DNA of 64,000 nt from Bacillaceae bacterium (GCA_017656255.1 JACDOE010000002.1:4033-68032), one strand, 5' to 3'. Counted from the first letter of the stretch, positions 11,326 through 26,098 are shown. The notes: a model not told the origin generated them from the letters alone. Translations and numbers: made by a program.

Positions 11326-12101
11326 CAGTCACACAACTCCTTTAATTCACTTAAAAGTGATTCAATGTTTGCTTGAATTTGTTTCATTTCTATATGAAGT
11401 TCCATCTTTATGCCAAAGTCTAACACATGATTTTGTTTTTGTTTTAATTCCTCTAACTGAGATTTTCTTACATTGACTTCTGATAACTTAGAAATGATTA
11501 AATCACGACTTTCATCTTGAGTTGGAAAGCACTCTATCCACTCAATGATTGGTGAACACTGCAACCAACGATTCAAGTCATCATAAAATTTGTAGAGATC
11601 AACAAACGATTGATTCGAGCACTTTAAGGCGTTTAGCAACTTTTCGTAGGAACTGTTATTGTTTTTTGGATGGAACCACCCAGTCAGTAATGGTTCATCC
11701 AACACAACTTTGGTAGGATCATTTTTATTCAACCGCTTATGACATGTGCTCAGCAACCACTCTTTTTCCTTTGACTCCATAATCAAAACAGCTGGATTTG
11801 GAATCGATTTATGAATCGCATGGATTATTCGATTAACATGTTGGTTCGTACGTAATTGTACATAAATCCAAACCACTTCAGCATATTGATGCACCTCTGA
11901 CTGATACGTAGAGATATTCATGCTTTGACGATTCATTACACTCAGTAAGTATATTCCTTCTATTTGAGAAGTAAATAGCTCTTTCTCCTTTTTCGATAAG
12001 TCACCTTGAGAAAAGAATGTTTTTTTCGGAACTTTTCGATTTAACACCGTTCTTTGCGGTATCTCAAACTGCTGGATAACCCATTCTCGCAACCTTCTCA
12101 C
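11325..12101 (-). CDS. DUF4391-like hypothetical protein of the helicase/type III module
   Basis: 258 aa with no catalytic motifs recognised. Its start/stop junctions are shared with the flanking genes (12102/12101 and 11325/11325). Size and context resemble DUF4391 proteins that accompany SNF2 helicases and DNA methyltransferases. The family assignment comes from memory of the architecture, not from an HMM. Confidence 0.45.
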   Translation of the reverse strand: MRRLREWVIQQFEIPQRTVLNRKVPKKTFFSQGDLSKKEKELFTSQIEGIYLLSVMNRQSMNISTYQSEVHQYAEVVWIYVQLRTNQHVNRIIHAIHKSIPNPAVLIMESKEKEWLLSTCHKRLNKNDPTKVVLDEPLLTGWFHPKNNNSSYEKLLNALKCSNQSFVDLYKFYDDLNRWLQCSPIIEWIECFPTQDESRDLIISKLSEVNVRKSQLEELKQKQNHVLDFGIKMELHIEMKQIQANIESLLSELKELCD

Positions 12102-15100
12102 CTACTTAATAATTAAAAATGAAATTAATTCAAAGTCTTCTGACGTTGTATTTGTATCTACTAATAAACTTGAGTCTCCTAAACTAAATAAAGATTCCAT
12201 TCCTTTTTCTTCGACAATTCCAAGAATAAATTCAACGACTGTATCTAATAATGACTTATAATCAGACATGTCCGCTAATTCATCCGTTTCTTTATGAAAT
12301 TGCAAGATTAATTCCGTAAACAATACATTTTGGCCCATGCAAACCTTTCGATAGAGGTCAAGGATTTGCTTCGTTTTGGAATGACCTAATAAAATATCAC
12401 CGTCATTACTCACATACACAAGATAATATGGATACAGAGCACTCAACTCTTTTATTTTGGCATTAGCGTTTCGTTGTTTGATACAAAAAATGACACCTGG
12501 TTTTGCTTCACCATTAGGAGTTAAATGTTTAGACGTGATTGAATACATACCTAGCGGAGCCGTTTCTAAATCAAGTTTATGTTTATTCATATAATCAACT
12601 AAATCCATCTTGAAGTCGTTCAATGTTAAGTCCGTGATCGAAATCCCGCCTGAAATATCCTCTAGATCAATTACTTCTTCTTGAAGTTGTTTCAGCTGCT
12701 TCGCACGATACTCTAGATCGTTCATTTTTTTCTTTTCATCATACTCGATTACATTCTCTTCTCCTGTTGCCGATATATCTAATAAAACCATACGACCACT
12801 TACACGAGCTTCTAAATTGATATACTCGTCTAAATCCATGTTTGGCCAGAAGTTCACAAGCTGAATCACATCATTTTTTGATCCGAGACGATCAATTCGA
12901 CCAAATCGTTGAATAATACGCACTGGATTCCAATGAATATCATAATTAATTAAATAATCACAGTCCTGTAAGTTTTGACCTTCAGAAATACAATCTGTTG
13001 CAATAAGTAGATCAATTTCTTCATTTGCCATTTCATCCACTTTATTTCGTTCTTTTGATACAGGGGAAAAATACGTTAAGATGGTATTTAAATCTTTTGG
13101 AATATTGCTTAAAGTTGTTTTATTTCCACCTGTACCGGTTACTAGAGCTGTGTGAATACCATATTCCTTTAGGATCCATTTGGACAGCTCATCGAATAAA
13201 TAGTTTGCTGTATCAGCAAAAGCCGTGAACACAATTATTTTTTTATTGTTTTGGTTTATTGGATTTGAAAGCTTATGATGAATCATAGACTTTAATTCTA
13301 AAAGTTTAGCATCCCGGTAAGGTCTGACTTTTGCCGATTCGACAAGAAGCTTCTCAAGTTTTTGTTTATCCTCTTCAAGGTCTTGACGCAATTTAATTTG
13401 ATCAATGTCTTGAAGCAGCACCTTGACTTTCGATCCAATTAGCATATCTTCCACATCATCGTCATCTATATTTATATCTGTAATATTAATCGACTGTTCA
13501 GTGAATTGATTAATATTTTCAAGCTTATTCAATAGATCATCAATTTTACCTAATAACGAGGCAATTGTCATGCCGAATGAGTGAATAGAGCTTTCCATTC
13601 GTTTTAAAAGATTAACACGCATTAAATGAACGAGACTACGTTCCCTGTCAATTTGTTTAAAAACAGATCCGCCTTTTACTTGGATATCGTATTTCTGACT
13701 ATATTCGGCCTGTTTCTCAGGCAAGACATATTTTAAAGGCGAATAGGCACTCAAATTCAATCGATTAATAATTTTATTTACTTCTCTAATTTCAGGAAAC
13801 TCTTTCTCTTCATCTATATCAGGATAAACATTAATTGGTTTTAATCTTTTTGGAAACTTCCCTATTTCTGACATGTTGTAGTATTTTTCAATATGTTTTC
13901 TAGACCTTGCGATAGTTATAGCATCCAACAATTTAAAATAATCAAAATTTAACATTTCTAATAATGTATCTGTTGTCCTTTTTTCTTCACCTAATTTTAA
14001 CCATTTATTAAAGTCTTGCTGTGCTTTTCTTAGTGTTAATTCAATACTATCAATTCCTGCTGAATTTAATGCATTATCTTTTCCTTCCGTAATAAAAGAC
14101 ACTTGATTTTTTAAATCATTCATTTTATTATTTACTGGTGTTGCTGAGAGCATTAAAACTTTTGTTTTTACTCCAGATCTAATTACTTGATTCATTAAAC
14201 GTGAATAACGGGTTTCTCGGTCTTTCCGCGCTTCATTATTTCGGAAATTATGTGATTCATCAATCACAACTAAGTCGTAGTTACTCCAATTTACAGTTGC
14301 TAAATTAATATCACCAGACATTCCACTATATCGACTAAGATCCGTATGATTTAACACATCGTAATTAAATCGATCTGCAGCTAAAACGTTTCGTTTGTCA
14401 TTTTGTGTATAGATTAGCCAATTTTCACGTAATTTTTTAGGACAAAGCACTAATACACGATCATTTCGAAGCTCGTAATATTTAATAACAGCAAGTGCTT
14501 CAAAAGTTTTTCCCAAACCAACACTATCAGCTATAATGCAGCCATTATATTTTTCAAGTTTATCAATGGCTCCTAAAACCCCATCTTTTTGAAATTTATA
14601 TAGTTTATTCCAAATGATCGTATCTTTAAAGCCTGTTTTAGATTTGACAATATCGTCTTCACTTAATTCTTCTAAAAAGTCTTTAAAGATATTATAAAGG
14701 GTCACATAATACAGAAACTCAGGTGTATTATCTTGATAAATTTTTTCGATCCGACTTAATACTTCTTGTTTAACATTTTCTACATGCTCATCATTGTTCC
14801 AGATTTGGTCGAACCATCTGAGATAATTCATTGTTTGGCCAGGTTCATTTATTAAAGAATTCATTTCATAATTAGTTGAATACGTATATCCTAATCCACT
14901 ACTCGTGAAATTTGAGGTGCCTTGAATGGCAATTGAATCATCACTCTTGTTTTGCACATGAATAAGGTTCCCGGGTGCCATTGGTAAATTTAACGATTTC
15001 ATTTGAACTTTTGAACGAATCCAGTCCGCACATTCACGTGCAATCTTAGCTTGATTGAGTTCGTTCCTAAATTTTACTTCTAAATCTATGCCTACCAAGC

Positions 15101-15347
15101 TATTCTCTCGTTTAAGCATTTCATGTTTGGCCATTTGATCAGGAATTTTCATATCACGTATAAAAGTTGGACTATTGAATAAAAATCGAACCTCTTCTAC
15201 TTTTAATAACTCTTTCTTAAGTGCTTCAAAAGCATATATTGTAAAATATGAAGACATAATCGATATTTTTGAACCCTTTTTTAGGAATTTCTTCAACTCG
15301 TCCCCAACATTACCATGCGTTTTATTATCTAGCATTTTTCCAACCAT
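12102..15347 (-). CDS. PLD-like nuclease domain fused to an SNF2-family (SF2) helicase
   Basis: 1081 aa. N-terminal phospholipase-D-like segment with H..K..DD..GTSNFT. SNF2 motif I DSVGLGKT, motif II DESHNFRN, and a helicase C domain. Head of a four-gene operon. Confidence 0.75.
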   Translation of the reverse strand: MVGKMLDNKTHGNVGDELKKFLKKGSKISIMSSYFTIYAFEALKKELLKVEEVRFLFNSPTFIRDMKIPDQMAKHEMLKRENSLVGIDLEVKFRNELNQAKIARECADWIRSKVQMKSLNLPMAPGNLIHVQNKSDDSIAIQGTSNFTSSGLGYTYSTNYEMNSLINEPGQTMNYLRWFDQIWNNDEHVENVKQEVLSRIEKIYQDNTPEFLYYVTLYNIFKDFLEELSEDDIVKSKTGFKDTIIWNKLYKFQKDGVLGAIDKLEKYNGCIIADSVGLGKTFEALAVIKYYELRNDRVLVLCPKKLRENWLIYTQNDKRNVLAADRFNYDVLNHTDLSRYSGMSGDINLATVNWSNYDLVVIDESHNFRNNEARKDRETRYSRLMNQVIRSGVKTKVLMLSATPVNNKMNDLKNQVSFITEGKDNALNSAGIDSIELTLRKAQQDFNKWLKLGEEKRTTDTLLEMLNFDYFKLLDAITIARSRKHIEKYYNMSEIGKFPKRLKPINVYPDIDEEKEFPEIREVNKIINRLNLSAYSPLKYVLPEKQAEYSQKYDIQVKGGSVFKQIDRERSLVHLMRVNLLKRMESSIHSFGMTIASLLGKIDDLLNKLENINQFTEQSINITDINIDDDDVEDMLIGSKVKVLLQDIDQIKLRQDLEEDKQKLEKLLVESAKVRPYRDAKLLELKSMIHHKLSNPINQNNKKIIVFTAFADTANYLFDELSKWILKEYGIHTALVTGTGGNKTTLSNIPKDLNTILTYFSPVSKERNKVDEMANEEIDLLIATDCISEGQNLQDCDYLINYDIHWNPVRIIQRFGRIDRLGSKNDVIQLVNFWPNMDLDEYINLEARVSGRMVLLDISATGEENVIEYDEKKKMNDLEYRAKQLKQLQEEVIDLEDISGGISITDLTLNDFKMDLVDYMNKHKLDLETAPLGMYSITSKHLTPNGEAKPGVIFCIKQRNANAKIKELSALYPYYLVYVSNDGDILLGHSKTKQILDLYRKVCMGQNVLFTELILQFHKETDELADMSDYKSLLDTVVEFILGIVEEKGMESLFSLGDSSLLVDTNTTSEDFELISFLIIK

Positions 15348-15457
15348 GCATATCCCCCTGTTTCTTTATGTATTATTTTTTAGGGATTGATTTATAATAA
15401 CAATTTTATTTTATAGTTACATTTTACCATTATCTTTGTACATTATTGCAATAAGTT

Positions 15458-16840
15458 AAGTCCATATAATTGTGTAAAAAGAAAATCTATAAAAAAGGAG
15501 CCATTTTCAAATCCCTCGGTTAGAATGAAGTTGTGCACACTACATTCGAGAGGAGAGATTTGAAATGGCTCAATACAAGATTAACGTAGATTCAGAGATT
15601 TTGCATCAACTTTTTCTGGGGAATTCTCAAGATTCAGGGGTAGCGGCTTTGTTGGAGTCCGTGTTAAATCAGGTCTTAGAGGCACAGGTTTCAGAACAAT
15701 TAGGGGCCGAACCCTATGAACGCACAGATGAACGCCAGGGTTATCGAAACGGTACATATCCTCGTCAACTGACGACGCGTGTCGGTAAGATCACCCTTCG
15801 AGTACCTCGTCTGAGAAACGGCAAGTTTTCTACCGAATTGTTTGCCCGTTACCAGAGAAGTGAACAAGCATTGGTTCTGGCTCTGATGGAAATGGTGGTC
15901 AATGGGGTTTCGACGCGAAAAGTGAGCCAGATTACAGAAGAATTGTGCGGTGAGGAGTTTTCCAAGTCGACAGTTTCTGAGCTGTGCAAAAAACTGGATC
16001 CGATTGTACAAGCCTGGAATAACCGAAACCTTCGAGATCGAAATTATCCGTTTGTCATTGTGGATGCAATGGTGATTAAAGTGCGTGAAGAGGGGCGGGT
16101 TCGATCCCGTGGTGTCCTGATAGGATACGGGATTAATGACGAAGGGCATCGGGAAGTATTAGGCATGATGCTTGGAGACAGCGAATCTGAAGCGAGCTGG
16201 AATGACTTTTTCTCCTGGTTGAAATCCCGCGATTTACGCGGTGTGGATCTCATTGTTTCTGACCACCACAGCGGACTGGTCAAAGCGATCCGAAATCACT
16301 TTCAGGGGGTAACGTGGCAGCGTTGCCAGACTCACTTTATGAGAAACATTCTGGATGCCACCCCAAAGGCTTTAAAAGAAGAAATCCATACGCGGGTCAG
16401 AGCCGTGTTTGATGCACCCGATATGAAGACAGCCAGGCTGTTACTTGAAGATGTGTTGGCAGAATATGAAGAGAAAGCTTCAAAGGCGATGAATATCCTG
16501 GAGACCGGTTTTGATGATGCGACAGCCGTCCTCGTTTTACCAAAGAAATACCGCAAACGTCTCCGGACAACAAATGGGATGGAGAGGCTGAATGAAGAGA
16601 TCCGACGCAGAGAACGGGTCATTCGCATCTTTCCTAATAGAGAGTCGGCCATGAGACTCATTGGAGCTTTGCTCATGGAACAGGATGAGAAATGGTCCAG
16701 TGGCCGAAAGTATTTGGACATGACGGAATACCACTTATGGCTTCCATCTCAAAAACAAGATAAACAGGTTCAAAAGGTTACTCAACTTCGAACTTCATCT
16801 TCTAACAGGGGGATTCATTTTTACACATAATTTTGGACTT
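15458..16840 (+). mobile_element. IS256-family insertion sequence (about 1.38 kb)
   Basis: Imperfect terminal inverted repeats AAGTCCATATAATTGTGTAAAAAG (left) and revcomp of TTCATTTTTACACATAATTTTGGACTT (right). Contains a single Mutator-like transposase gene. Confidence 0.75.
15565..16830 (+). CDS. IS256-family transposase
   Basis: 421 aa. Hallmark NGVSTRKV motif and DDE region typical of IS256/Mutator-like transposases. Confidence 0.85.
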   Translation: MAQYKINVDSEILHQLFLGNSQDSGVAALLESVLNQVLEAQVSEQLGAEPYERTDERQGYRNGTYPRQLTTRVGKITLRVPRLRNGKFSTELFARYQRSEQALVLALMEMVVNGVSTRKVSQITEELCGEEFSKSTVSELCKKLDPIVQAWNNRNLRDRNYPFVIVDAMVIKVREEGRVRSRGVLIGYGINDEGHREVLGMMLGDSESEASWNDFFSWLKSRDLRGVDLIVSDHHSGLVKAIRNHFQGVTWQRCQTHFMRNILDATPKALKEEIHTRVRAVFDAPDMKTARLLLEDVLAEYEEKASKAMNILETGFDDATAVLVLPKKYRKRLRTTNGMERLNEEIRRRERVIRIFPNRESAMRLIGALLMEQDEKWSSGRKYLDMTEYHLWLPSQKQDKQVQKVTQLRTSSSNRGIHFYT

Positions 16841-16979
16841 AATCGACATTTCCCCTTTGTAGTTATAGCCAGAGTAAATGGTAAATAACAAAGAGAGATT
16901 TATATTATTATAAAAGAAAAAGGAAATTGAGAATAAATATAGAAGTTAGAAGTAAATTTTAATCATTTGTTTAGATCAG

Positions 16980-17549
16980 ATGTTTAGGATGTGTATATCT
17001 ATGACTGGAATAATATTTGTAGGAGGAATTCATGGAGTTGGTAAAACAACTTTATGCAAGCAAATATCTGAACAGTTTAAATTATTACATTATTCAGCGA
17101 GTGATTTAATATCACAAAGGAAAAAAGTCGATTTTAATAATGAGAAAAAAGTTAGGAATATAAATGAGAACCAAAATTTATTACTGGAGGCAATAAATTG
17201 TTTAGATACTCGAGATAATTGTTTATTATTAGATGGTCATTTTTGCTTAATAAACACATTTGGAGAAATTAGAAAAATTCCTATTGAGACATTTATTAAT
17301 TTATCACCTAGCGCAATAATCTGTTGTACTGAATCTCCTACAAAAATTTTTACTAGGTTAAAAGAGAGAGATAACATAAATTATGATATTAATTTTTTAG
17401 AAAGATACCAAAGAATCGAATTAGCATATTCACAAGAAATATCAGAGAAATTAAATGTACCTTATTTCGTTTACTCTCCGGTCGAAGAAATGAATAATTT
17501 TTATAAATTTTTAGAAAGAATAATTAAAGGAGGGGTAGAATGTGAGTGA
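16980..17549 (+). CDS. Small P-loop NTPase / nucleotide-kinase-like protein
   Basis: Walker A GGIHGVGKTT near the N-terminus, about 185 aa, kinase-like size. An alternative start at 17001 is possible. Very AT-rich. The next gene overlaps its 3' end. Confidence 0.55.
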   Translation: MFRMCISMTGIIFVGGIHGVGKTTLCKQISEQFKLLHYSASDLISQRKKVDFNNEKKVRNINENQNLLLEAINCLDTRDNCLLLDGHFCLINTFGEIRKIPIETFINLSPSAIICCTESPTKIFTRLKERDNINYDINFLERYQRIELAYSQEISEKLNVPYFVYSPVEEMNNFYKFLERIIKGGVECE

Positions 17550-18591
17550 TTATTTAGAAAGAAGAAAATTTAAGGATGTTGATTTAAACGATAATTTTTT
17601 TGATTCTCTAAAAGAAGATTATCACGAATTTGAAACTTGGTTTAGAAAAAAAGAAGAAGAGGAAGCGTTTTTACTATATGATAATGATAATAAAATTCAA
17701 GGATTTCTTTATTTTAAAATTGAGGAAGGTCCAATAAAAGATGTTGAACCAGACATTAATCAAAAAAAAGTATTGAAAATCGGAACTTTTAAAATTAACC
17801 CTCATGGTACTAGATTAGGTGAGCGTTTTATAAAGAAGGCTTTAGATTATGCCATTGTAGAGAATGTAGATGCGTGTTATGTTACTATTTTTGAAAGGCA
17901 TGATGTCTTAGTAAAGCTGTTTGAAAGGTATGGTTTTATTAGGTACGGCGTTAAAGATACATCCAACGGGATTGAACTAGTTTTAGTTAAAGATTTGCGT
18001 GAGTTAAAGAATGATATATTATTGGATTATCCTTTAATCAGTACAAAAAATTCAAGAAAATTCATCCTTTCAATTTACCCTAAGTACCATTCAAGGATGT
18101 TTCCGGATTCTATCTTAAAAACTGAAAAAGTCGATATTCTAGAAGATGTTTCATATACGAATAGTATACATAAGATATATGTTTGTAGAATGGCTGTCGA
18201 TCAAGCGAACCGTGGAGATATCTTTGTAATATATCGCACAAAAACTCCTGGACAAAGTGCCGAATATACATCTGTTGTAACATCAGTGTGTGTTGTAGAG
18301 GATATAAAGAGTCAAGATGAATTTAAAAACTTTGAAGAATTTTTTGAATATGCTAATGCTTATAGTATATTTAATCGTGATGATCTAAAAAAGTGGTATA
18401 ACAAAGGGGGATGTTTTATTATCAAAATGACTTACAATGCAGCTTTGAGTAAAAGATTAATTAGAAAAAAACTAATTGAAGAAATAGGTCTTGAACGTAA
18501 TAGCTATTGGGGATTTTTCGAAATATCAAATGAGCAATTTAATCGAATTCTAGAAGAAGGTGAAGTTAATGAAAGTATTATTATCGATTAA
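17542..18591 (+). CDS. GNAT-fold acetyltransferase-like protein with about 190-aa uncharacterised C-terminal domain
   Basis: GTG start with RBS AAAGGAGGGG. The N-terminal half carries the GNAT motif-A-like HGTRLGERF. The C-terminal half has no recognisable motif. Overlaps both neighbours (8 nt upstream, 23 nt downstream). Confidence 0.5.
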   Translation: MSDYLERRKFKDVDLNDNFFDSLKEDYHEFETWFRKKEEEEAFLLYDNDNKIQGFLYFKIEEGPIKDVEPDINQKKVLKIGTFKINPHGTRLGERFIKKALDYAIVENVDACYVTIFERHDVLVKLFERYGFIRYGVKDTSNGIELVLVKDLRELKNDILLDYPLISTKNSRKFILSIYPKYHSRMFPDSILKTEKVDILEDVSYTNSIHKIYVCRMAVDQANRGDIFVIYRTKTPGQSAEYTSVVTSVCVVEDIKSQDEFKNFEEFFEYANAYSIFNRDDLKKWYNKGGCFIIKMTYNAALSKRLIRKKLIEEIGLERNSYWGFFEISNEQFNRILEEGEVNESIIID

Positions 18592-18943
18592 ACCCGAATA
18601 TGTTGAACAAATTGAAAATGGAAACAAAAAATTCGAATATAGAAAAAGAATTTTTAAAAAAAATGTTGATTCGGTAGTGGTTTACTCAACAAAGCCGGTT
18701 GGGAAAATAGTTGGAGAAATTATAATAGAAGAAATTATAAATGATTCTCCAGAAGAAATTTGGAACAAGACAAATAAATATTCTGGAATCTCAGAAGAAA
18801 ACTTTAAAAATTACTTTTCTAATCGAAAGGAAGGGTTTGCTATAAAGATCAAGAAATTTCTTAAATATGATAAACCTTTAAATCCATTTGAAATTTTTAA
18901 TGATTTTGTACCTCCGCAGTCTTATAAATATATAGAAAGATAA
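18569..18943 (+). CDS. ASCH (PUA-like) domain protein
   Basis: MKVLLSIKPEYVEQIENGNKKFEYRK is the canonical ASCH N-terminal pattern. About 124 aa. Start is inside the 3' end of the upstream gene; the ORF-track start at 18560 is GTG. Confidence 0.65.
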   Translation: MKVLLSIKPEYVEQIENGNKKFEYRKRIFKKNVDSVVVYSTKPVGKIVGEIIIEEIINDSPEEIWNKTNKYSGISEENFKNYFSNRKEGFAIKIKKFLKYDKPLNPFEIFNDFVPPQSYKYIER

Positions 18944-18948
18944 ATAGG

Positions 18949-18972
18949 GTGACTACAAGTCACTTATTTTTT
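18949..18972 (+). terminator. Rho-independent terminator after the ASCH gene
   Basis: Stem GTGACT / AGTCAC with a 3-nt loop, followed by TTATTTTTT. Confidence 0.6.
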
Positions 18973-19008
18973 ATGTACAAGTAATCAAAGTAAAAAAGGT
19001 GATTCATT

Positions 19009-21366
19009 ATGATACGAACAGGCGTTAGGTGGCTAGAATCCGAAACTCGCAAAATATTTAATGCAACCAAAAAATCAGACGAATTATTGGCATATCTTGA
19101 TTCACTTTTATTTCATAAAAAAGTGGCTACTGGAAGTGCTGAATCATTTGAATCTGGTCGAAAGCAGGGCAGAATGACGTATTATAAAGAAAATAAAAGA
19201 TTCATTGTAGCCGCACCTAGAAAAAAAGGAGATTACATACATGTCGTCCTAACAATCCAAACTATCAGCAGAGCTGAAATGGAGGAACAGGGATTTAAAT
19301 TGGGAAACCAACATGATATTTATCTCTATAATAAAGAAGAAATAGAAAGGTTTGTCGATTTTTTAAATTTTAAACTAAACCGGGGACGACAATTAAAATT
19401 ATCATCACTGGTGTTGAAAGAATGGATTAAGAGATACATACAAGATGAAGATAGTCGTAAACGATATAAACAAGTTAATAAATCCAGATTTACAACACTT
19501 GAACATTTTAAAATTTATCTTGAACAGTTAAAATCCGGTGACCTGTCGCTATTAGAATTTAAAAAGAACATTGACCAGTTATTTAAAACAAAACATGAAA
19601 TAGCCGGCGAAAAAATCAACATATGGGGATTCAGCGGCTTTTCAGGTCAAATGTTTTTCAACCAAATCTGTAATCAGGTTGAACATGCCGGAATGATGGA
19701 TGAATTAACCAATGCTTTTCTTGAGGCAATTGAATTACCTGAACAAATCAACCATGATTTCAGCTGGGTCAAACATAAATTTCAAACCTTTATTGAAATC
19801 ATTAAAATATCGGCTAAAAAAGCCATTGAGAACGGGTTTCCCCCACAAAAATGTGCCAAAGTTAAATTTTCAACATTTTTCTTAAGTTTTTTCTGGGGGA
19901 TTCAGGATCTTTATCATATCCCGATTTATTATCGGTCTTCCAGAGATGCACTGGAGTATCTAGAGTATCCACTTAATCAAAACACTAAACATTTTGATGG
20001 AACCAATTACATATATTTTGCAGAACGTATGAACGAAGTTTCTGACGAAGTATCCACTTATTTGCCTGATGACAATACATTTAACATGTTAGAGCTGGAA
20101 CATTTTCTTCATTATGTAAAACAAAAAGTTGAGGAACAAAAGCAAAGTCAGGATGAAATTTACACTCTTTCAGATGATTTGTTTGCAGAGAGAATCAAGA
20201 ATACATTTATTGATATAGGAATCGTGATCGATGAGATGTCCAGCTCAATGGGTGAAGAGACGGATTTACCCGAGAGCCATCATGGCCAGGAGGTATGGCG
20301 GTTTTCGGGGAAGACAAACAAAGATGCCATGGTTTCTTATCTATTCTGCTGGGATAATCCGGATACGTATCTTTCCACCGTTTATGAAGAAGATGAAGAA
20401 GGTGCCTCCAAAAATATAGGGGAGATAGGCGGAGAAAATGAAGATGACTTCCTCCGCAATATGAAAAGATTTTTCATAGATCGTTTTAAGGAAAAAAAGC
20501 CCTATACACTTGAAGATGCGGTAGGGGAGACTTATATTGAAAAGAAATTGCTGGAAGAATGGCTGGAGCTTTTAAGTGAAAACAAGCAAATTATTTTTTA
20601 TGGTCCGCCCGGAACGGGTAAAACCCTTGTTGCCAAAAAACTGGCAAAAATACTGGCACAGCACGAAAACAGAACACGATTTATCCAATTTCACCCTTCT
20701 TACACCTATGAAGAATTTATAGAGGGACTGCGTCCTGAACTGGTTAAGACGGATCAGGGGACTTCCCAGTTATCCGTTAAAGTAAAACCCGGTATTTTTA
20801 AATCCTTATGTAAAGAAGCTTCAAAACCGGAAAATAAGTATGATTCCTATGTTTTAATTATCGATGAGATTAATCGCGCAAACACAGCTAAAGTATTTGG
20901 AGAATTGTTATATGCGCTGGAATACCGTGATACGCCGGTCCCTCTTCCTTACTCGAATGAAGATAAATTAATCGTTCCTTCAAATGTGTATCTGATTGGA
21001 ACCATGAATACGACTGACCGGTCCCTGGCCCATATAGATTTTGCTTTACGTCGCCGGTTTCAATTTATCCCCTTTTTTCCAGAGCAAACCGAACACGTCT
21101 TAAAATCATATCTGGATAAACATCAACCGGAAATGTCATGGGTCTTTGATCTTGTTAAATACGTTAATCAAAAAATAGAAGATCCCCATTATGCGATCGG
21201 ACACAGTTACTTTATGGGCCAGGAATTAACTGAAGAGAAGTTGGAACGAATATGGAAGTATCAGATTATACCTTATCTTGAAGAATGCTTTGTTCATCAG
21301 CCTGATAAAATAGAAGAATTTAAACTGGAAACGTTATTGGAAAATGGGGAGTTCAGGCATGACTAG
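19009..21366 (+). CDS. McrB-like AAA+ GTPase with long N-terminal putative DNA-recognition region
   Basis: The C-terminal 260 aa carry Walker A GPPGTGKT and the McrB signature IDEINRANTAKVFGELLYALEYR. The N-terminal 520 aa are unassigned. Confidence 0.75.
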   Translation: MIRTGVRWLESETRKIFNATKKSDELLAYLDSLLFHKKVATGSAESFESGRKQGRMTYYKENKRFIVAAPRKKGDYIHVVLTIQTISRAEMEEQGFKLGNQHDIYLYNKEEIERFVDFLNFKLNRGRQLKLSSLVLKEWIKRYIQDEDSRKRYKQVNKSRFTTLEHFKIYLEQLKSGDLSLLEFKKNIDQLFKTKHEIAGEKINIWGFSGFSGQMFFNQICNQVEHAGMMDELTNAFLEAIELPEQINHDFSWVKHKFQTFIEIIKISAKKAIENGFPPQKCAKVKFSTFFLSFFWGIQDLYHIPIYYRSSRDALEYLEYPLNQNTKHFDGTNYIYFAERMNEVSDEVSTYLPDDNTFNMLELEHFLHYVKQKVEEQKQSQDEIYTLSDDLFAERIKNTFIDIGIVIDEMSSSMGEETDLPESHHGQEVWRFSGKTNKDAMVSYLFCWDNPDTYLSTVYEEDEEGASKNIGEIGGENEDDFLRNMKRFFIDRFKEKKPYTLEDAVGETYIEKKLLEEWLELLSENKQIIFYGPPGTGKTLVAKKLAKILAQHENRTRFIQFHPSYTYEEFIEGLRPELVKTDQGTSQLSVKVKPGIFKSLCKEASKPENKYDSYVLIIDEINRANTAKVFGELLYALEYRDTPVPLPYSNEDKLIVPSNVYLIGTMNTTDRSLAHIDFALRRRFQFIPFFPEQTEHVLKSYLDKHQPEMSWVFDLVKYVNQKIEDPHYAIGHSYFMGQELTEEKLERIWKYQIIPYLEECFVHQPDKIEEFKLETLLENGEFRHD

Positions 21367-22579
21367 GCGACAGTGGTACCGGATCAAGGAATATCAAACA
21401 CGGCAAGGGGTTCAACTGTCTGAACAGAGTGTCCAGTTGTTACACAATCATTTTCGTCAAGTGGTCAAAGTAAGAAAAGCAGCGGATGGCTCCTGGGACA
21501 TAAAGGCCAATTCGATCGTGGGCCACATTAACTTACCAGACGCCATCATTCAAATTGAACCCAAAATCCCCATACAAACATTGTGGGAATGGATGGCGTG
21601 GGCGTATGATTTAAAGTCCCTGGAAATCTATCCATCCATGTCACCGTTCCAGCATCATGTTGGTGATCAAGAATGGCTGGTCAAAATCTTTTTATATGAA
21701 TGTGAAAAGATATATTCACAGGGGATTTACAAGGGATATGTGACGCGTGAAGAGGCCCTGGGGCATGTTCGGGGTCAATTAAATGCTTATCCGACCTTTC
21801 GTTTATGGCTTCAAAATGACTATCAATTTCTGTGCACCTTTGACGAATTGACATATGGGGTGACGGAAAATGAAATTATTTTCGCTGGCTTGCAGGACAT
21901 GAGCTCTAAAACTTTTCAAGATCCTGAGGTAAAGTCCCGGATTCATAAATTGATCCATGTATTTGGCGCTGAATTTTCTACCACACCGAAAAGATCGCCG
22001 CAGGAATGGATCGACATGATTGATAGTATCAAGATAACCCGACTCAATCACCATTACACCCGGGCGTTCCGTTTGTTGCGTTTATACTGGGAGGCTGCTG
22101 GACTTTCTTTTCAAAAGGGGAACATACAATGTCACAGTTTTTTGCTGGATATGAATGAGCTTTTTGAGCGCTACATTGCCAAAAGGTTGCAACATGAATT
22201 AAGTCCCTATCATGTGAATGTCATAGCCCAAAAGCAGGACTGGCTGGCAGTCGGAGGGCGCATTAAAATTGTTCCTGATCTAATCATCAAAGATGCGTCA
22301 GGTGACGAGATTGTTCTGGATACAAAGTATATCGGAAAAACCGAAGAGAGCTCCATCAACAGTCATATCTTCCAGATGCTTGCCTATTTAACTGCTCGGC
22401 AATCTAAAAAAGGCATTCTTCTTTACGTTTTTGGACCTGAACGGGAGGACGTGATTAAAAATACCGATATGGTTATATATCAATGGGGATTTATGGATAA
22501 TGAATTCAAGGAAGATGGCAAAGCGTTGACGGATAAGATTATGGGTCTGTTTAATAAACATTTATCTCATTCTAGTTAA
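21359..22579 (+). CDS. McrC-like PD-(D/E)xK nuclease subunit
   Basis: C-terminal VPDLIIKD...EIVLDTKY (PD...D/ExK). Overlaps the McrB-like gene. RBS GGGGAG lies upstream of the ATG at 21359; the ORF track begins at 21344. Confidence 0.7.
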   Translation: MTRRQWYRIKEYQTRQGVQLSEQSVQLLHNHFRQVVKVRKAADGSWDIKANSIVGHINLPDAIIQIEPKIPIQTLWEWMAWAYDLKSLEIYPSMSPFQHHVGDQEWLVKIFLYECEKIYSQGIYKGYVTREEALGHVRGQLNAYPTFRLWLQNDYQFLCTFDELTYGVTENEIIFAGLQDMSSKTFQDPEVKSRIHKLIHVFGAEFSTTPKRSPQEWIDMIDSIKITRLNHHYTRAFRLLRLYWEAAGLSFQKGNIQCHSFLLDMNELFERYIAKRLQHELSPYHVNVIAQKQDWLAVGGRIKIVPDLIIKDASGDEIVLDTKYIGKTEESSINSHIFQMLAYLTARQSKKGILLYVFGPEREDVIKNTDMVIYQWGFMDNEFKEDGKALTDKIMGLFNKHLSHSS

Positions 22580-22592
22580 GGAGGGGAAAAGA

Positions 22593-22829
22593 TTGTCCAC
22601 ACAAAGTGATGCCATTATAAAAGCTTTTGAAGAATTAGGAGGTACCAGGAGCATTAGAGAAATAGAGGATTGGGTTAACAGAAAGTATGGAGCCAAATGG
22701 AAGGATTTTAGTACGTTGATGGCTGATATGGTACCTGTGTCTCATGGTGGCAATACTTCTTCAACTGTACCCGAAGAAAAACGGGTTTTAGAAAGGGTTT
22801 CACGGGGCTATTATCGTTTGATAAAATGA
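22593..22829 (+). CDS. Stand-alone winged-helix protein (Mrr_N / HARE-HTH-like)
   Basis: 78 aa with a TTG start after RBS AAGGAGGGG. Pattern SIREIEDWV...RVSRGYYRL resembles the N-terminal wHTH of Mrr-type restriction enzymes. Confidence 0.45.
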   Translation: MSTQSDAIIKAFEELGGTRSIREIEDWVNRKYGAKWKDFSTLMADMVPVSHGGNTSSTVPEEKRVLERVSRGYYRLIK

Positions 22830-23341
22830 TTCACAAATTCGAATTAACATTTTCAAAAAATATATTAATTTCTCTTAATATATTCACAAATATGAAGCAC
22901 AATACTACCAATTGAGTTTGGTGATCTAGTTTCTTTCCACCATAAATTTTCAGTACTTAATGATTGAATGCATTTAACAACTTGGAGAGGTAATGATTGT
23001 ACATCCTGGCTTTTGAAATTTTAATAAATAGTTTCAAAGTTTCATTTGCCATTGACTCATTCCCCTATTTAACCAAGTTCTAATTTATTATTATATAGAA
23101 TAATTTGAGTTGCAGCTACTAACCACGCGTGCCTCCAAATCCTACAGGTATTTTTGCCATCAATCGCATCCATGCAACAAATATTAGAGATAACCTTTTT
23201 GATTTAAACTATTCATTATTGCAGAATCTTCATGGTATACTAATGTTACATATCCAACTGTATAAAGTCTTCTAACACGGCAACACTAATCCTAAAAACT
23301 TTTTAGGAGGTGAGGTCGTGGATAAAAAGGAGGGGAACGAT

Positions 23342-23494
23342 ATGCTCACTCCGGTTAAGCCTATTAACAAAGCCAAAAAAACAGGACTAACAAAGGATAA
23401 GAAGGAGCTTATGAAGAAATATCAGGGGTCTGCTTCTGCTCCGGTAGATTTGAATAAAATACGCCAGTGGTCAAAGAAGAATGAATCTCATTAA
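23342..23494 (+). CDS. Lys-rich 50-aa micro-ORF overlapping the PIN gene start
   Basis: Strong RBS AAAAGGAGGGG lies 6 nt upstream of the ATG. Product MLTPVKPINKAKKTGLTKDKKELMKKYQGSASAPVDLNKIRQWSKKNESH. Not in the ORF track because it is below the size cut-off. Confidence 0.3.
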   Translation: MLTPVKPINKAKKTGLTKDKKELMKKYQGSASAPVDLNKIRQWSKKNESH

Positions 23495-24041
23495 TTTCTC
23501 AGATAATTTCACAGGTTTTCATGAAGGCGAGGATATTTTAGTTGATACTGGAATATTACTTGCCTATTTTAATGAGTATGATGCGTATTATTCCACTGTT
23601 AAGGACCTGTTTGATAATCACATTTATGGAACCGATAGAACCCTGTTCCTTTATGTAAATCCAACTATCGTCAACGAGATTACCCATTTAGCCCAGGATC
23701 CTGTAAAAAGATATTTAAACGCATATCCTTCAGAACGGGATAAGTTTGATATGATTACCTTAATTAATTTGCAAAATAAGATAGCAAACGGAGTAAAGAA
23801 TTTAATTGAAAATGAAATCCTGTATGTGCTGGATGGAAACGAAGAAAGCGTGAAAAAACAGATTGAACTATACAAGACTTTAGGGTCTGCTGATGCTGTG
23901 AATGCATCTGTTGCTAATCTTTATGGGACAAGCTTCTTAACGGTAGATGCAAAACTGGCTTACAATCTAAAAAGCGTTGAAAATCAACTTCCTTACATCC
24001 AAAATGTATACTATACAACTTCTAGATACCGTGATTTCTAA
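23481..24041 (+). CDS. PIN-domain (VapC-like) protein
   Basis: Acidic residues sit in the positions expected of a PIN domain: ILVDTG near the N-terminus and LTVD near the C-terminus. 186 aa. Confidence 0.45.
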   Translation: MNLINFSDNFTGFHEGEDILVDTGILLAYFNEYDAYYSTVKDLFDNHIYGTDRTLFLYVNPTIVNEITHLAQDPVKRYLNAYPSERDKFDMITLINLQNKIANGVKNLIENEILYVLDGNEESVKKQIELYKTLGSADAVNASVANLYGTSFLTVDAKLAYNLKSVENQLPYIQNVYYTTSRYRDF

Positions 24042-24149
24042 AAGAAGTAGGAAAACCAAAAAAATAACGAACGAAGTGTTCCAGAAGGAACAGTCCCAAC
24101 TTCGTCAGGTTGAACAATCAGTTATACCTTTATTTAAATAACCTCGCCG

Positions 24150-24593
24150 TTATTTGAACAATTTTTCGTTAAACCATACTGTCAAAAGTGTAATAAATAC
24201 ACTAATAAACCCGGCATACACGTAAGCAGGAGTAAAAAAGATAAATATATCTTGAACGACATCATACGCCTTGGTTTGCAGTTCTGGAAATTCATAACTA
24301 CCGATTTCCCTAGAGCCTAACCAAAGAAGCAATATCCTTTCAAGAATCATTGGAATCAGAGATACCATAAAGGCAAATTTATATGGTTGACTGATCTGGC
24401 CATTCTTTTTAAAACTTATTGTTATGAACCCTAAAATAATATAAGGTATGACAATGAGCAATGTCCCAATGACTATTTCAACGTGGCCAAAATAAATTCT
24501 GGTGCCGAATCCAATACCGCTGATTATTCCATAGACTAACAAATACATAACCCAGCTTACAATAAAATATCCAGCCTTCTTTAGCATTTTCAA
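24150..24593 (-). CDS. Hypothetical integral membrane protein
   Basis: 147 aa with four predicted hydrophobic helices. Last gene of the AT-rich island. Confidence 0.5.
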   Translation of the reverse strand: MKMLKKAGYFIVSWVMYLLVYGIISGIGFGTRIYFGHVEIVIGTLLIVIPYIILGFITISFKKNGQISQPYKFAFMVSLIPMILERILLLWLGSREIGSYEFPELQTKAYDVVQDIFIFFTPAYVYAGFISVFITLLTVWFNEKLFK

Positions 24594-24907
24594 TCCCCCT
24601 TTGCAGGAATAAGAATAAGGGAGAAGCCACCTTATTCGTTTAGTTATGAGATCACTTTCTGTCTATAGTAACGTTTATAATTTCCATAACGTTTCTATGA
24701 GTTAGCAAAATTAATCCCCGATTGTAGTGTAGGTTACGGTTGAGCAATACAGCACAATCCAATCATGAAACAGCAAAGTTATTTCAAAATCACAAAATAA
24801 ATCTTGTTAACCCCCAAAAATTCCCCTATAATAAACCCAACAAAACTTTTCTTAACACTTAAGAAAATTATTGAAAAATCCAAACTAAAACCACAGGGAG
24901 AACCAAC

Positions 24908-26098
24908 ATGCTAACCGGAAACTACGAAATCATCAAATCCGTCAACATATCCCTCGTCCTTGACGCCCTGCGACACCACGAACAACTCTCACGATCCGAC
25001 ATCGCCAGACTGACCGGCCTCACCACCGGCACCATCACCAACATCGTCCACAAACTCATCGATCATGGCCTCGTCGAAGAAACCGGATCCAGCACCTCAT
25101 CCACCGGCGGAAGAAAACCCATCTTGCTCCGCCTTGCTGCCCGGGGCGCCTATGCCATCGGCATCGAAGTCACCACCACCGGCATCAAAGGCATGCTGGT
25201 CAACTTCCTGGCAGAACCCATACATACGCTTGAAAAACCGGGTGTCTTCCGCTACCAGCAGGGCCTATACTCCATCGCAGACCTCATCAAAGAACTGCAG
25301 CAACATCTGCCGGACGAACAGGACAAATTGCTCGGCGTCGGCATCAGCCTGCCGGGATGGGTCCATTTTGCCACCGGGAAAGTTCAGAATCTTCCCAACT
25401 TGCCGGGCTGGGAAAACGTCAACCTCAAGGATGATCTGGAGCAGGAGATCCGCCTCCCGGTGTTTATCGACAACGACGCCAATCTGGGCGCACTGGGCGA
25501 ATTATGGTTTGGCAAAGGCAGGATGTATCAACAGCTCATCTATATCCTGGTTGAAGACGGAATCGGCTCCGGTTTTGTGTTCAATCATCAGGTCTATCAC
25601 GGCAGGGGGTACACGGTCGGTGAACTGGGGCATATCCCCTTCGGCGGGAGTGATCAGCCCTGCTCCTGTGGCAACAGGGGATGCCTTGATGTCACCGCCT
25701 CAAACCGGGCCATGCTGAGAAACTATGCCACCCGGACGGGGGAAAACATCACCATCGAAGCATTGAACAGCCGTTTTCAACAGGGAGAGGAAGCCGCCCG
25801 TGCCGTCATGGAGGAATGCGCCGACAGGCTGGGCAGGGGCTGTGGAGCTCTGATCAACCTGTATGGACCCGAAGCGATCATCATCGGGGGAACCGTCGTC
25901 CATCAAAATCCCCATTTTCTGGATCTGGTCAAAGAGGCGACGCTCAAGTACGCCCTCCCCGTCATGTCCCGGGAGGTCCTGCTGACCGGGTCTCAATTAA
26001 AAGAACGCAGCGGTCTCTACGGCTGTGTCGCCCTCGTTTTTCAATCGACCCTGCAGCCCTATTCCCTGCAGTCGGTAGGCGGAACGCAATCAGGATAA
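24908..26098 (+). CDS. ROK-family transcriptional repressor (NagC/XylR-like)
   Basis: N-terminal wHTH (LSRSDIARLTGLTTGTITNIV), ROK sugar-kinase-like fold, and Zn motif CSCGNRGCLD. Confidence 0.8.
   Translation: MLTGNYEIIKSVNISLVLDALRHHEQLSRSDIARLTGLTTGTITNIVHKLIDHGLVEETGSSTSSTGGRKPILLRLAARGAYAIGIEVTTTGIKGMLVNFLAEPIHTLEKPGVFRYQQGLYSIADLIKELQQHLPDEQDKLLGVGISLPGWVHFATGKVQNLPNLPGWENVNLKDDLEQEIRLPVFIDNDANLGALGELWFGKGRMYQQLIYILVEDGIGSGFVFNHQVYHGRGYTVGELGHIPFGGSDQPCSCGNRGCLDVTASNRAMLRNYATRTGENITIEALNSRFQQGEEAARAVMEECADRLGRGCGALINLYGPEAIIIGGTVVHQNPHFLDLVKEATLKYALPVMSREVLLTGSQLKERSGLYGCVALVFQSTLQPYSLQSVGGTQSG

What the first reader, a model, noticed from the sequence alone, without database searches (positions are those of the whole stretch)
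19009..22579. McrBC-like pair whose McrB subunit carries an unusually long (about 520 aa) unassigned N-terminal region
Seen in sequence: the C-terminal 260 aa of the 785-aa protein have the McrB AAA+ GTPase signatures (GPPGTGKT; IDEINRANTAKVFGELLYALEYR). The overlapping downstream gene has an McrC-type PD...D/ExK motif (VPDLIIKD...LDTKY). Established: in McrB homologs the N-terminal domain determines which modified base is recognised. Here this region is far longer than the E. coli McrB N-domain (about 160 aa) and shows no motif I recognise. It also has a different composition (AT-rich) from the GTPase part and mcrC, suggesting domain shuffling. Inference: an McrBC variant with a novel specificity or effector-sensing domain, possibly working with the adjacent ASCH protein and the downstream wHTH protein.
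Basis: partly seen in the sequence, partly recalled or inferred. Interest (0 to 1): 0.55.

Follow-up and report, generated by a model that had tools for sequence, protein, structure and literature searches.

The report
McrBC restriction system, unnamed sensor domain
This is an intact two-gene McrBC-type anti-phage restriction system whose motor subunit carries three unannotated N-terminal domains; the middle one belongs to a widespread, unnamed family that is also fused to several other restriction nucleases and is probably a new sensor of foreign or modified DNA.

Summary
ORF 19009-21366 (785 aa) ends in a canonical McrB AAA+ GTPase. The overlapping ORF 21344-22579 is a canonical McrC. No Pfam, NCBIfam, PHROG or PDB sequence match covers McrB residues 1 to about 495.

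That region is three domains, not one:
- D1, residues 1-130, basic α/β.
- D2, residues 133-381, helical, with invariant WGFSGFSGQMFFN and FFLSFFWGIQD..PIYY motifs.
- D3, residues 391-495, acidic α-β5-α.

AlphaFold models are confident (pLDDT 88.6; D2 alone 93.9). Foldseek finds no significant PDB or viral match.

D1 and D3 occur only in about 20 Bacillales McrB clusters. D2 is a promiscuous, mostly N-terminal module with 424 representative clusters across bacteria and archaea. It is fused to McrB GTPases, FokI cleavage domains, Mrr, GmrSD-HNH, HNH and TIR, and has no Pfam model.

My reading is a Type IV McrBC whose target sensor is D2. A weak, non-significant structural echo of Ogg2-type DNA glycosylases hints at an inactivated-glycosylase sensor, as in the END nucleases.

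The adjacent ASCH gene belongs to a separate candidate system (PDC-M11). The small downstream ORF is not conserved. Neither is a partner.

Verdict: a new variant of a known kind, of moderate interest.

The parts
19009..21366 (+). mcrB-like gene, 785 aa: three N-terminal domains followed by an McrB AAA+ GTPase
   Evidence: ORF. Domains. The exact protein is P0001, from a Bacillaceae MAG contig of 274,577 bp.
19009..19398 (+). D1, residues 1-130: basic (pI 9.7) α/β domain with an invariant APRK..H-V motif. It occurs only in the long Bacillales forms.
   Evidence: Alignment. AF2 secondary structure α-β4-α-β-α. pI. Restricted distribution. No PDB or Pfam match.
19405..20151 (+). D2, residues 133-381: helical module of about 250 aa with invariant WGFSGFSGQMFFN (residues 206-218; the reported block 206-219 ends in a non-invariant Q; nt 19624-19665) and FFLSFFWGIQD..PIYY (290-308, nt 19876-19932). 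This is the predicted target-sensing domain.
   Evidence: Alignments A2 and A9. AF2 pLDDT 93.9, pTM 0.90. 424 representative clusters. Fusion census. No Pfam family. No significant Foldseek hit.
20179..20493 (+). D3, residues 391-495: acidic (pI 4.4) α-β5-α domain with W430, W448 and YEE(N/D)EEG, linking D2 to the GTPase. It occurs only in the Bacillales clade.
   Evidence: No relation to the FokI cleavage domain or to D1.
20497..21363 (+). McrB-type AAA+ GTPase with lid. Walker A nt 20602-20625, Walker B nt 20854-20877, NxxD signature MNTTDRS nt 21004-21024.
   Evidence: PDB 7vsr and 6hz4 at E about 1e-49. AAA_5 at E 1.6e-20. PRK11331. PF28529 McrB_lid, precomputed. Motif positions.
21344..22579 (+). 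mcrC: DUF2357-type N-terminal region plus PD-(D/E)xK nuclease. The P-D...D-T-K motif is at nt 22271-22330. The start is either 21344 or 21359.
   Evidence: PF10117 at E 1.3e-41. PRK09736 at E 6.6e-24. Motif. A gene of 407-411 aa always follows and overlaps mcrB in homologous loci.
18947..18975 (+). Terminator-like hairpin and T-run between the PDC-M11B (ASCH) stop codon and the mcrB ribosome-binding site. It marks the upstream edge of the McrBC unit.
   Evidence: This is a consensus match only.

Best explanation
This is a self-contained Type IV (modification-dependent, methyltransferase-less) McrBC restriction system.

Proposed mechanism:
- McrB assembles through its C-terminal AAA+ GTPase into a ring.
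- McrC inserts into the ring, stimulates GTP hydrolysis and supplies the PD-(D/E)xK nuclease.
- Target choice lies in the N-terminal extension of McrB. Its conserved core, D2, is an aromatic-rich helical module that binds foreign DNA, most likely by recognising a non-canonical or modified base.
- D1 (basic) probably adds non-specific DNA affinity.
- D3 (acidic) is a clade-specific spacer or regulator between the sensor and the motor.

Shown: the McrB GTPase and McrC identities, intact catalytic motifs, the three-domain anatomy, the family-wide fusion pattern of D2, and the absence of a dedicated methyltransferase.

Inferred: DNA binding by D2, dependence on modification, which modification is sensed, and the roles of D1 and D3.
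For: - The GTPase and the nuclease are canonical and intact.
- mcrB and mcrC overlap here and in every homologous locus examined.
- D2 is an autonomous, confidently folded domain (pLDDT 93.9, pTM 0.90).
- A profile search of D2 against 1.84 billion representative proteins finds 424 at E<=1e-3 and 209 at E<=1e-10, nearly always at the N-terminus.
- Among 86 D2 proteins of 330 aa or more, the fused partners are: McrB-type AAA_5 in 26, FokI cleavage domain in 21, GmrSD_N in 4 (one also with HNH), Mrr_cat in 3, Mrr_cat_2 in 2, NA-iREase1 in 2, and TIR, EVE, HNH and Mrr_N in 1 each. This is the combinatorial pattern of known Type IV reader domains.
- The FokI-type partners keep the catalytic D...D-x-K (invariant D68, D83, K85).
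- No orphan methyltransferase neighbours the McrBC homologues or five distant D2-nuclease loci. The only methylase seen there is part of a complete Type I system.
- D2 is found in Bacillales, Deltaproteobacteria, Saccharibacteria, Thermoleophilia, haloarchaea and a Heimdallarchaeota MAG. This patchy, HGT-like spread is typical of defence modules.
- The gene sits in a low-GC defence island next to a Type III RM system, an HKD-SNF2 helicase and PDC-M11.
Against: - There is no direct evidence that D2 binds DNA or a modified base.
- No significant similarity to any characterised reader was found by sequence or by Foldseek.
- Rare fusions to TIR and to NACHT-associated iREase, and stand-alone D2 proteins of about 240 aa, would also fit a more general 'sensor' role.
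- The methyltransferase-absence test rests on about ten loci.
- Functions proposed for D1 and D3 rest only on charge and position.
Confidence: 0.65

Rival explanations
1. This refines the best explanation rather than contradicting it. D2 would be a highly diverged, catalytically dead HhH-GPD (Ogg2/EndoIII-like) glycosylase fold. The locus would then be the McrBC counterpart of the recently described END nucleases: it would flip out and sense hypermodified bases rather than one specific methyl mark.
For: - In the D2-only Foldseek search, the hit with the highest probability is S. solfataricus Ogg (3fhg, prob 0.44, TM 0.34/0.40).
- Three of the four distinct Ogg2-family proteins in PDB (3fhg, 3knt, 3n0u), plus the glycosylase-like DUF2419 (7u1o), fall in the top 31 of 350,542 chains.
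- hhalign independently aligns D2 residues 292-362 with MjOgg 131-199, that is, the second HhH helix, the Asp loop and the next three helices. In that alignment the catalytic K129 corresponds to invariant F290 and D147 to invariant Y308.
- The END preprint (PMC12191111) reports an inactivated EndoIII/Ogg sensor fused to PLD nucleases, to NucS-like nucleases and to McrB-like GTPases. Its END-Mag sensor hits the same three PDB entries by HHpred.
Against: - All Foldseek E-values are about 0.9-1.7, TM-scores are below 0.5 and rmsd is about 12 Å.
- hhalign gives Prob 1% and E 0.057, barely above unrelated controls (scores 14-15). It drops to E 0.44 with a 112-sequence D2 profile.
- None of 22 D2 segments hits Pfam HhH-GPD or OGG-like, even at E<=10.
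- D2 has a β-hairpin and no canonical h-G-h-G hairpin.
- In END nucleases the sensor is C-terminal.
Confidence: 0.35
2. D2 is a sequence-specific DNA-recognition domain comparable to the N-terminal recognition domain of Type IIS enzymes such as FokI. The system would cut unmodified DNA at or near a fixed motif, with host protection coming from a methyltransferase encoded elsewhere.
For: - About a quarter of the long D2 proteins are D2 plus a FokI cleavage domain, which is a Type IIS-like layout.
- A Type III mod gene (9430-11325) and other methylases lie in the same islands.
Against: - Those methylases belong to complete RM systems of their own.
- D2 is also fused to McrB, Mrr and GmrSD, which are hallmark Type IV effectors.
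- The D2 motifs are nearly invariant from Bacillales to archaea. Sequence-specific readers normally diversify at their contact residues.
Confidence: 0.1
3. The N-terminal region senses something other than DNA, such as a phage protein or RNA, or acts as a regulatory effector-sensing module.
For: - D2 occasionally pairs with TIR and with NACHT-associated iREase domains, and it also occurs alone.
- Some McrBC branches (CoCoNuTs) are predicted to target RNA (PMC11090510).
Against: - The GTPase has the canonical NxxD motif, not the NxD variant that marks the CoCoNuT branch (PMC11090510).
- There are no long coiled coils, cold-shock (CSD) domains or other RNA-binding domains.
- McrC keeps an intact DNA-type PD-(D/E)xK site.
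- The great majority of D2 partners are dsDNA nucleases.
Confidence: 0.08
4. McrBC works as one unit with the upstream ASCH protein and the downstream 78-aa ORF.
For: All three are on the same strand. The gaps are short: 65 nt upstream and 13 nt downstream.
Against: - ASCH and its upstream neighbour are PDC-M11B and PDC-M11A.
- A terminator-like hairpin separates them from mcrB.
- Neither gene accompanies the McrBC homologues.
- The 78-aa ORF has no supported family.
Confidence: 0.05

Closest known systems
E. coli K-12 McrBC (EcoKMcrBC), Type IV restriction
   Same: - AAA+ GTPase with Walker A, Walker B and NxxD motifs, E about 1e-49 to the solved structures.
- McrC with a DUF2357-type region plus a PD-(D/E)xK nuclease.
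- Overlapping two-gene operon.
- No cognate methyltransferase.
   Different: - The 160-aa DUF3578/ADAM 5mC reader is replaced by about 495 aa of three unrelated, unannotated domains.
- The NCBIfam equivalog score is far below cutoff (176 versus 637 bits), so this is not an orthologue.
- The target modification is unknown.
END nucleases and their inactivated EndoIII/Ogg sensor, including the reported iEndoIII-McrB fusions (bioRxiv 2025, PMC12191111)
   Same: - A helical sensor module combined modularly with different nucleases and with McrB GTPases.
- No methyltransferase.
- D2's only recurring structural echo is to the same Ogg2 glycosylases (3fhg, MjOgg, TmOgg).
- Residues at the aligned catalytic positions are non-catalytic.
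   Different: - Neither the sequence nor the structural similarity of D2 to HhH-GPD is significant.
- D2 is N-terminal and has a β-hairpin plus a WGFxGxxGQMFFN loop that I do not recognise from HhH-GPD enzymes (recalled, not tested here).
- D2's partner set (FokI, Mrr, GmrSD, TIR) differs from that reported for iEndoIII (PLD, NucS-like, McrB).
McrB homologues with alternative N-terminal readers: YTH in T. gammatolerans McrB, EVE-McrB, and NTD-wH-NTPase/McrC (PMC11037411)
   Same: The same principle applies: a constant GTPase plus McrC, with an exchangeable N-terminal specificity module.
   Different: D1, D2 and D3 give no EVE, YTH, PUA, ASCH, SRA or DUF3578 signal in Pfam, and no DpnI-type winged-helix (wH) match by PDB sequence or Foldseek search.
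Single-chain Type IV enzymes built from a reader plus a nuclease (SRA-HNH, EVE-HNH, Mrr, GmrSD)
   Same: D2 is found in the same architectural slot, N-terminal to Mrr_cat, GmrSD_N-HNH, HNH and FokI-type cleavage domains.

Membership tests
McrB family AAA+ GTPase | [quoted passage not shown] | tested here: met
   PDB 7vsr and 6hz4 at E about 1e-49 over residues 484-776. GPPGTGKT at 532-539 and LIIDEINR at 616-623.
McrB family AAA+ GTPase | McrB signature NxxD motif (canonical clade) | tested here: met
   MNTTDRS at residues 666-672. The motif definition is taken from PMC11090510.
McrB family AAA+ GTPase | McrB-specific lid domain | tested here: met
   PF28529 McrB_lid appears in the precomputed Pfam hits for the exact protein P0001 and for all full-length homologues.
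McrB family AAA+ GTPase | Orthology to EcoKMcrB (NCBIfam equivalog PRK11331 cutoff) | tested here: not met
   176 bits against a cutoff of 637. Only profile positions 154-451 match. It is a family member, not the E. coli orthologue.
McrB family AAA+ GTPase | GTP hydrolysis stimulated by McrC, and hexamer formation | not testable with these tools
   Needs biochemistry.
McrC | PF10117 McrBC-component homology over the full length | tested here: met
   E 1.3e-41, residues 53-361 matching profile positions 1-317 of 318. PRK09736 at E 6.6e-24, below the equivalog cutoff.
McrC | Intact PD-(D/E)xK catalytic residues | tested here: met
   VPDLIIKD at 310-317 and LDTKY at 325-329.
McrC | Encoded immediately downstream of mcrB in one operon | tested here: met
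   A 23-nt (or 8-nt) overlap here. Overlaps of 4-14 nt in loci L001, L003, L005 and L006.
Type IV (modification-dependent) restriction | No cognate methyltransferase in the unit | tested here: met
   None is adjacent in the window unit or in four homologous loci. In five distant D2 loci the only methylase is part of a complete Type I system. The sample is small.
Type IV (modification-dependent) restriction | Cleavage requires modified DNA | not testable with these tools
   Needs restriction assays.
DUF3578/ADAM (EcoKMcrB N-domain) and the EVE, YTH, PUA, ASCH and SRA readers | Profile match of the N-terminal region | tested here: not met
   No Pfam hit to residues 1-505 or its sub-segments at E<=10. 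No PDB sequence hit for the D1, D2 or D3 profiles. None of these folds appears in the Foldseek top 50.
HhH-GPD / Ogg2-like inactivated glycosylase sensor (iEndoIII of END nucleases) | HhH-GPD fold | tested here: inconclusive
   3fhg, 3knt, 3n0u and 7u1o recur in the Foldseek top 31, but at E about 1, TM 0.25-0.40 and prob at most 0.44.
HhH-GPD / Ogg2-like inactivated glycosylase sensor (iEndoIII of END nucleases) | Profile-level sequence similarity to HhH-GPD (PF00730) or OGG-like (PF21790) | tested here: not met
   No hit in 22 D2 segments at E<=10. hhalign against an Ogg2 alignment gives Prob 1% and E 0.057, and E 0.44 with a deeper profile.
HhH-GPD / Ogg2-like inactivated glycosylase sensor (iEndoIII of END nucleases) | Helix-hairpin-helix (h-G-h-G) followed by a Gly/Pro loop and Asp, or recognisable inactivated equivalents | tested here: inconclusive
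   No canonical hairpin. In the hhalign register, K129 corresponds to F290 and D147 to Y308, both invariant. The register itself is not statistically supported.
PDC-M11 (PADLOC candidate defence system), for the adjacent ASCH gene | Both components present and adjacent | tested here: met
   ORF 17542-18591 matches PDC-M11A at E 2.3e-147. ORF 18560-18943 matches PDC-M11B at E 1.2e-49. Their ends overlap.

The most novel reading that the evidence does not exclude
D2 defines a previously unnamed, structurally novel family of nucleic-acid-modification sensors. It would be used interchangeably by at least six kinds of Type IV or abortive effectors (McrBC, FokI-type, Mrr, GmrSD-HNH, HNH, TIR) across bacteria and archaea. 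Its specificity would not be covered by the known readers (DUF3578, SRA, EVE/YTH/PUA, wH, SBD, DUF262). The Bacillales D1-D2-D3 McrB would be an elaborated version in which an acidic domain gates the sensor.
Probability: 0.35. Interest if true: 0.65.

Novelty: new variant of a known kind. Interest (0 to 1): 0.5.

Why it matters
McrBC systems are classified and exploited according to their reader domains, for example as tools for mapping 5mC, 5hmC and 6mA. A confidently folded, strongly conserved, aromatic-rich module appears here in front of McrB, and elsewhere in front of FokI-type, Mrr, GmrSD and HNH nucleases. It has no Pfam model and no structural relative, so it is a concrete candidate for a new DNA-modification reader.

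If the Ogg-like hint is correct, it would extend the 'dead glycosylase as sensor' principle of the END nucleases to a much larger and more diverse set of defence enzymes.

For genome annotation, these proteins are currently labelled only 'AAA family ATPase', 'McrB family protein' or 'hypothetical protein'.

Tried and rejected
1. D3 as an inactivated PD-(D/E)xK or FokI-like domain. MAFFT aligned its first helix and strand with the FokI cleavage domain. hhalign gives Prob 0.5%, and the α-β5-α topology does not fit. Rejected.

2. D1 and D3 as duplicates of one fold. hhalign gives Prob 0.5%. Both look like α-β-sandwich domains. The weak Foldseek echoes (DUF1801/YdhG, YjbR, SAUGI, phage G Gp643 and Gp30) are not significant and cannot be assigned to one domain.

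3. Known readers (DUF3578, EVE/YTH/PUA/ASCH, SRA, DpnI-type wH, sulfur-binding domain, Mrr_N). There are no profile, PDB-sequence or Foldseek matches.

4. Composition as evidence of shuffling at the N-terminus/GTPase junction. The GC step lies between D2 and D3 and is modest.

5. A link to phages or plasmids. There is no tblastn hit in 50,697 phage records. One haloarchaeal plasmid carries a D2-McrB/McrC pair. There is no DNA-level match in plasmids.

6. Naming from public sources. Ten D2 clusters carry no informative name. Further homologues are labelled 'hypothetical protein' with no Pfam domain over D2.

7. The second and third word-indexed homology searches returned few proteins. The exhaustive profile search was what revealed the size of the family.

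8. No sequences or supplements for the END nucleases were available, so D2 could not be compared directly with the iEndoIII domain.


Full report
**Observation**

- ORF 19009-21366 encodes 785 aa.
- Residues 484-776 align with the AAA+ GTPase of E. coli McrB in solved structures 7vsr and 6hz4 at E about 1e-49. They also match NCBIfam PRK11331 over profile positions 154-451 and Pfam AAA_5.
- Walker A (GPPGTGKT, 532-539), Walker B (LIIDEINR, 616-623) and the McrB NxxD signature (MNTTDRS, 666-672) are intact.
- The precomputed Pfam hit PF28529, seen on all full-length homologues, is McrB_lid and is C-terminal.
- ORF 21344-22579 (411 aa) matches Pfam PF10117 at E 1.3e-41 over its whole profile. 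It keeps P-D...D-T-K at residues 311-328.
- The mcrC start could instead be ATG 21359, which has a GGGGAG Shine-Dalgarno sequence.
- Nothing in Pfam (E<=10), NCBIfam, PHROGs, PADLOC or PDB sequences matches McrB residues 1 to about 495.

**Anatomy of the N-terminal region**

A homology search with residues 1-490 found about 21 clusters of McrB fusions. All named ones are Bacillales (Evansella, Aneurinibacillus, Paenibacillus, and the exact protein in a Bacillaceae MAG). It also found 415-aa proteins that carry a FokI cleavage domain. The alignment and an AlphaFold model of residues 1-500 (mean pLDDT 88.6) resolve three modules.
- D1 (1-130) is α-β4-α-β-α and basic (pI 9.7). It has an invariant APRK...H-V motif. 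It is missing from the 650-aa Aneurinibacillus proteins.
- D2 (133-381) is helical with one β-hairpin. It carries invariant WGFSGFSGQMFFN (206-218) and FFLSFFWGIQD..PIYY (290-308).
- D3 (391-495) is α-β5-α and acidic (pI 4.4). It carries W430, W448 and YEE(N/D)EEG.

Local HMM searches show that D1 and D3 are confined to the Bacillales clade. Only D2 is shared with the FokI-domain proteins.

**D2 is a widespread, unnamed module**

- A profile of D2, searched exhaustively against 1.84 billion representative proteins, gave 424 hits at E<=1e-3 and 209 at E<=1e-10. D2 lies almost always at the N-terminus, in proteins of 230 to 1,459 aa.
- A Pfam census of 86 of these found: McrB-type AAA_5 in 26, FokI cleavage domain in 21, GmrSD_N in 4, Mrr_cat in 3, Mrr_cat_2 in 2, NA-iREase1 in 2, and TIR, EVE, HNH and Mrr_N in 1 each.
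- Individual scans confirmed D2-GmrSD_N and D2-GmrSD_N-HNH.
- The FokI-type partners keep their catalytic D...D-x-K.
- In D2-McrB fusions the distance from D2 to Walker A ranges from about 50 to about 800 residues. The length of the extension here is therefore not exceptional within the family.
- D2 proteins occur in Bacillales, a deltaproteobacterial MAG, Saccharibacteria, Thermoleophilia, Halorhabdus, a Natronosalvus plasmid (with an McrC-like neighbour) and a Heimdallarchaeota MAG.
- No Pfam family covers D2, even in the newer release used for the precomputed annotations. Stand-alone D2 proteins show no domain there, and public names are 'hypothetical protein', 'AAA family ATPase' or 'McrB family protein'.

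**Fold**

D2 alone models at pLDDT 93.9 and pTM 0.90. Foldseek finds no match at E<=1e-3 in PDB or BFVD, either for the three-domain model or for D2 alone. Profiles of D1, D2 and D3 find nothing in PDB sequences.

One weak signal recurs.
- The highest-probability hit for D2 is S. solfataricus Ogg (3fhg, prob 0.44, TM 0.34/0.40).
- M. jannaschii Ogg (3knt), T. maritima Ogg (3n0u) and the glycosylase-like DUF2419 (7u1o) are also in the top 31.
- I recovered Ogg2 sequences from PDB and ran hhalign against the D2 profile.
- The best alignment pairs D2 292-362 with MjOgg 131-199. That region covers the second HhH helix, the catalytic-Asp loop and the following helices.
- In that alignment the catalytic K129 and D147 fall on invariant F290 and Y308.
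- Support is poor: Prob 1%, E 0.057. It weakens to E 0.44 with a 112-sequence profile. Unrelated controls score nearly as high.
- No D2 member hits Pfam HhH-GPD or OGG-like.

This matters because a 2025 preprint describes END nucleases, in which an inactivated EndoIII/Ogg domain senses hypermodified bases. That domain is fused to PLD nucleases, to NucS-like nucleases and to McrB-like GTPases. The END-Mag sensor hits the same three Ogg structures by HHpred (PMC12191111). I treat this as the best lead for the nature of D2, not as a result.

**Surroundings**

The window from about 6.4 to 24.8 kb is a low-GC island (26-43% GC against about 51-56% in the flanks) directly downstream of glmS. It contains, in order:
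- a Type III-like res/mod pair, DUF4391 and an HKD-SNF2 helicase on the minus strand;
- an IS256-family transposase;
- a three-gene operon of a kinase-like protein, PDC-M11A (E 2e-147) and PDC-M11B, which is the ASCH protein (E 1e-49);
- McrBC;
- a 78-aa ORF;
- a PIN-like ORF.

A terminator-like hairpin with a T-run (18947-18965) lies between the ASCH stop codon and the mcrB ribosome-binding site.

In four homologous loci (P. sabinae, Aneurinibacillus sp. XH2, E. tamaricis and a JGI metagenome contig), mcrC always follows and overlaps mcrB. There is no ASCH gene. There is also no homologue of the 78-aa ORF; the small ORF in one locus is unrelated. The 78-aa ORF has only a sub-threshold DUF7669 hit and no PDB or PHROG match. 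McrB plus McrC is therefore the functional unit.

No orphan methyltransferase accompanies these loci or five distant D2-nuclease loci.

**Composition**

GC is 0.34 (D1), 0.33 (D2), 0.42 (D3), 0.39 (AAA+) and 0.42 (mcrC). GC3 for D1+D2 versus D3+AAA+ differs with p=0.007. The step lies inside the N-terminal region, between D2 and D3. Homologues lack it. It is at most a faint trace of a recombination joint. The solid evidence for shuffling is architectural.

**Mechanism**

By homology with EcoKMcrBC (established knowledge; structures 6hz4 and 7vsr), the C-terminal domain should form a GTP-dependent ring. McrC should activate the ring and cleave DNA.

The N-terminal region must supply targeting. 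D2 occupies the architectural slot that SRA, EVE, YTH, wH and DUF3578 readers occupy in other Type IV enzymes. It is combined with the same effectors. It lacks a partner methylase. Its conserved positions are dominated by aromatic residues plus a few polar ones (R160, K185, Q214, N218, S293, Q299).

I therefore infer that D2 binds DNA and recognises a non-canonical base. I give this 0.65 confidence for the overall reading and about 0.35 for the specific dead-glycosylase version. The roles proposed for D1 (extra DNA affinity) and D3 (spacer or acidic gate) are speculative.

**Verdict**

The finding is real and the gene pair is intact. As a system it is an McrBC, which is a known kind. Its sensor region is new in the sense that none of its three domains is described. 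D2 in particular is a sizeable, cross-domain family that no database names.

Variable and unassigned McrB N-termini are expected by specialists, which caps the surprise. The multi-effector distribution of D2 and its possible link to the END sensors make it a worthwhile, directly testable candidate reader.

Interest is 0.5. Novelty: new variant of a known kind.

Noticed in passing
window 6427-24800: A low-GC (26-43%) defence island sits directly downstream of glmS (3904-5811), the classic Tn7-type integration hotspot. The flanks are core genes at about 51-56% GC, including a ROK regulator at 24908-26098. No Tn7 transposition genes were seen.
   Followed up: partly
window 6427-15347 (minus strand): A four-gene cluster: Type III-like res (ResIII plus RE_endonuc, 995 aa), N6/N4 methylase (631 aa), DUF4391 (258 aa) and an HKD/PLD-SNF2 helicase (1081 aa; PADLOC C3a139 'HKD+Snf2', E 5e-141). 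The P. sabinae D2-McrB locus (L001) also has a PLD-SNF2 helicase plus a DUF1156 methylase immediately upstream. This may be no more than co-residence in defence islands.
   Followed up: partly
window 16980-18943: A three-gene operon with overlapping ends: an AAA_17 nucleotide-kinase-like protein (189 aa), PDC-M11A (349 aa, weak GNAT signal at the N-terminus) and PDC-M11B (ASCH, 127 aa; also PHROG 3136, E 4e-49). Some PADLOC PDC-M11A models are about 150 aa longer at the N-terminus, so the kinase-like gene may be a split-off domain. This is a candidate defence system of unknown mechanism.
   Followed up: partly
window 15565-16830: An IS256/Mutator-family transposase (E 8e-132) with 47% GC. This differs from both the island and the core genome. 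It is inserted between the Type III/SNF2 cluster and PDC-M11.
   Followed up: no
L013 4575-6944 (Evansella clarkii DSM 8720): The McrB homologue is interrupted exactly in the D3/AAA+ linker. A TAA stop lies at 6066-6068. The conserved KPYTIDDAVRETYV... continues in the +1 frame from 6085, and the next ATG (6138) opens a 268-aa GTPase ORF followed by mcrC. This is either a frameshifted pseudogene or a natural split at the domain boundary.
   Followed up: partly
window 22593-22829 and 23481-24041: The 78-aa ORF 13 nt downstream of mcrC has only a sub-threshold DUF7669 hit. A 186-aa ORF has a weak, sub-threshold PIN-domain hit (E 3e-4). Neither is conserved next to McrBC homologues, and their function is unknown.
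   Followed up: partly
window 21344-21366: The mcrC start is ambiguous. ATG 21344 gives a 23-nt overlap. ATG 21359 lies 6 nt after GGGGAG and gives the 8-nt overlap ATGACTAG with the mcrB stop codon.
   Followed up: no
L019 6202-9044 (Natronosalvus halobius plasmid NZ_CP099998.1): A haloarchaeal megaplasmid carries a D2-AAA ATPase followed by a 447-aa 'hypothetical protein' in the McrC position. The annotated CDS begins 201 nt after the start of the tblastn D2 match, so its start may be called too short.
   Followed up: no
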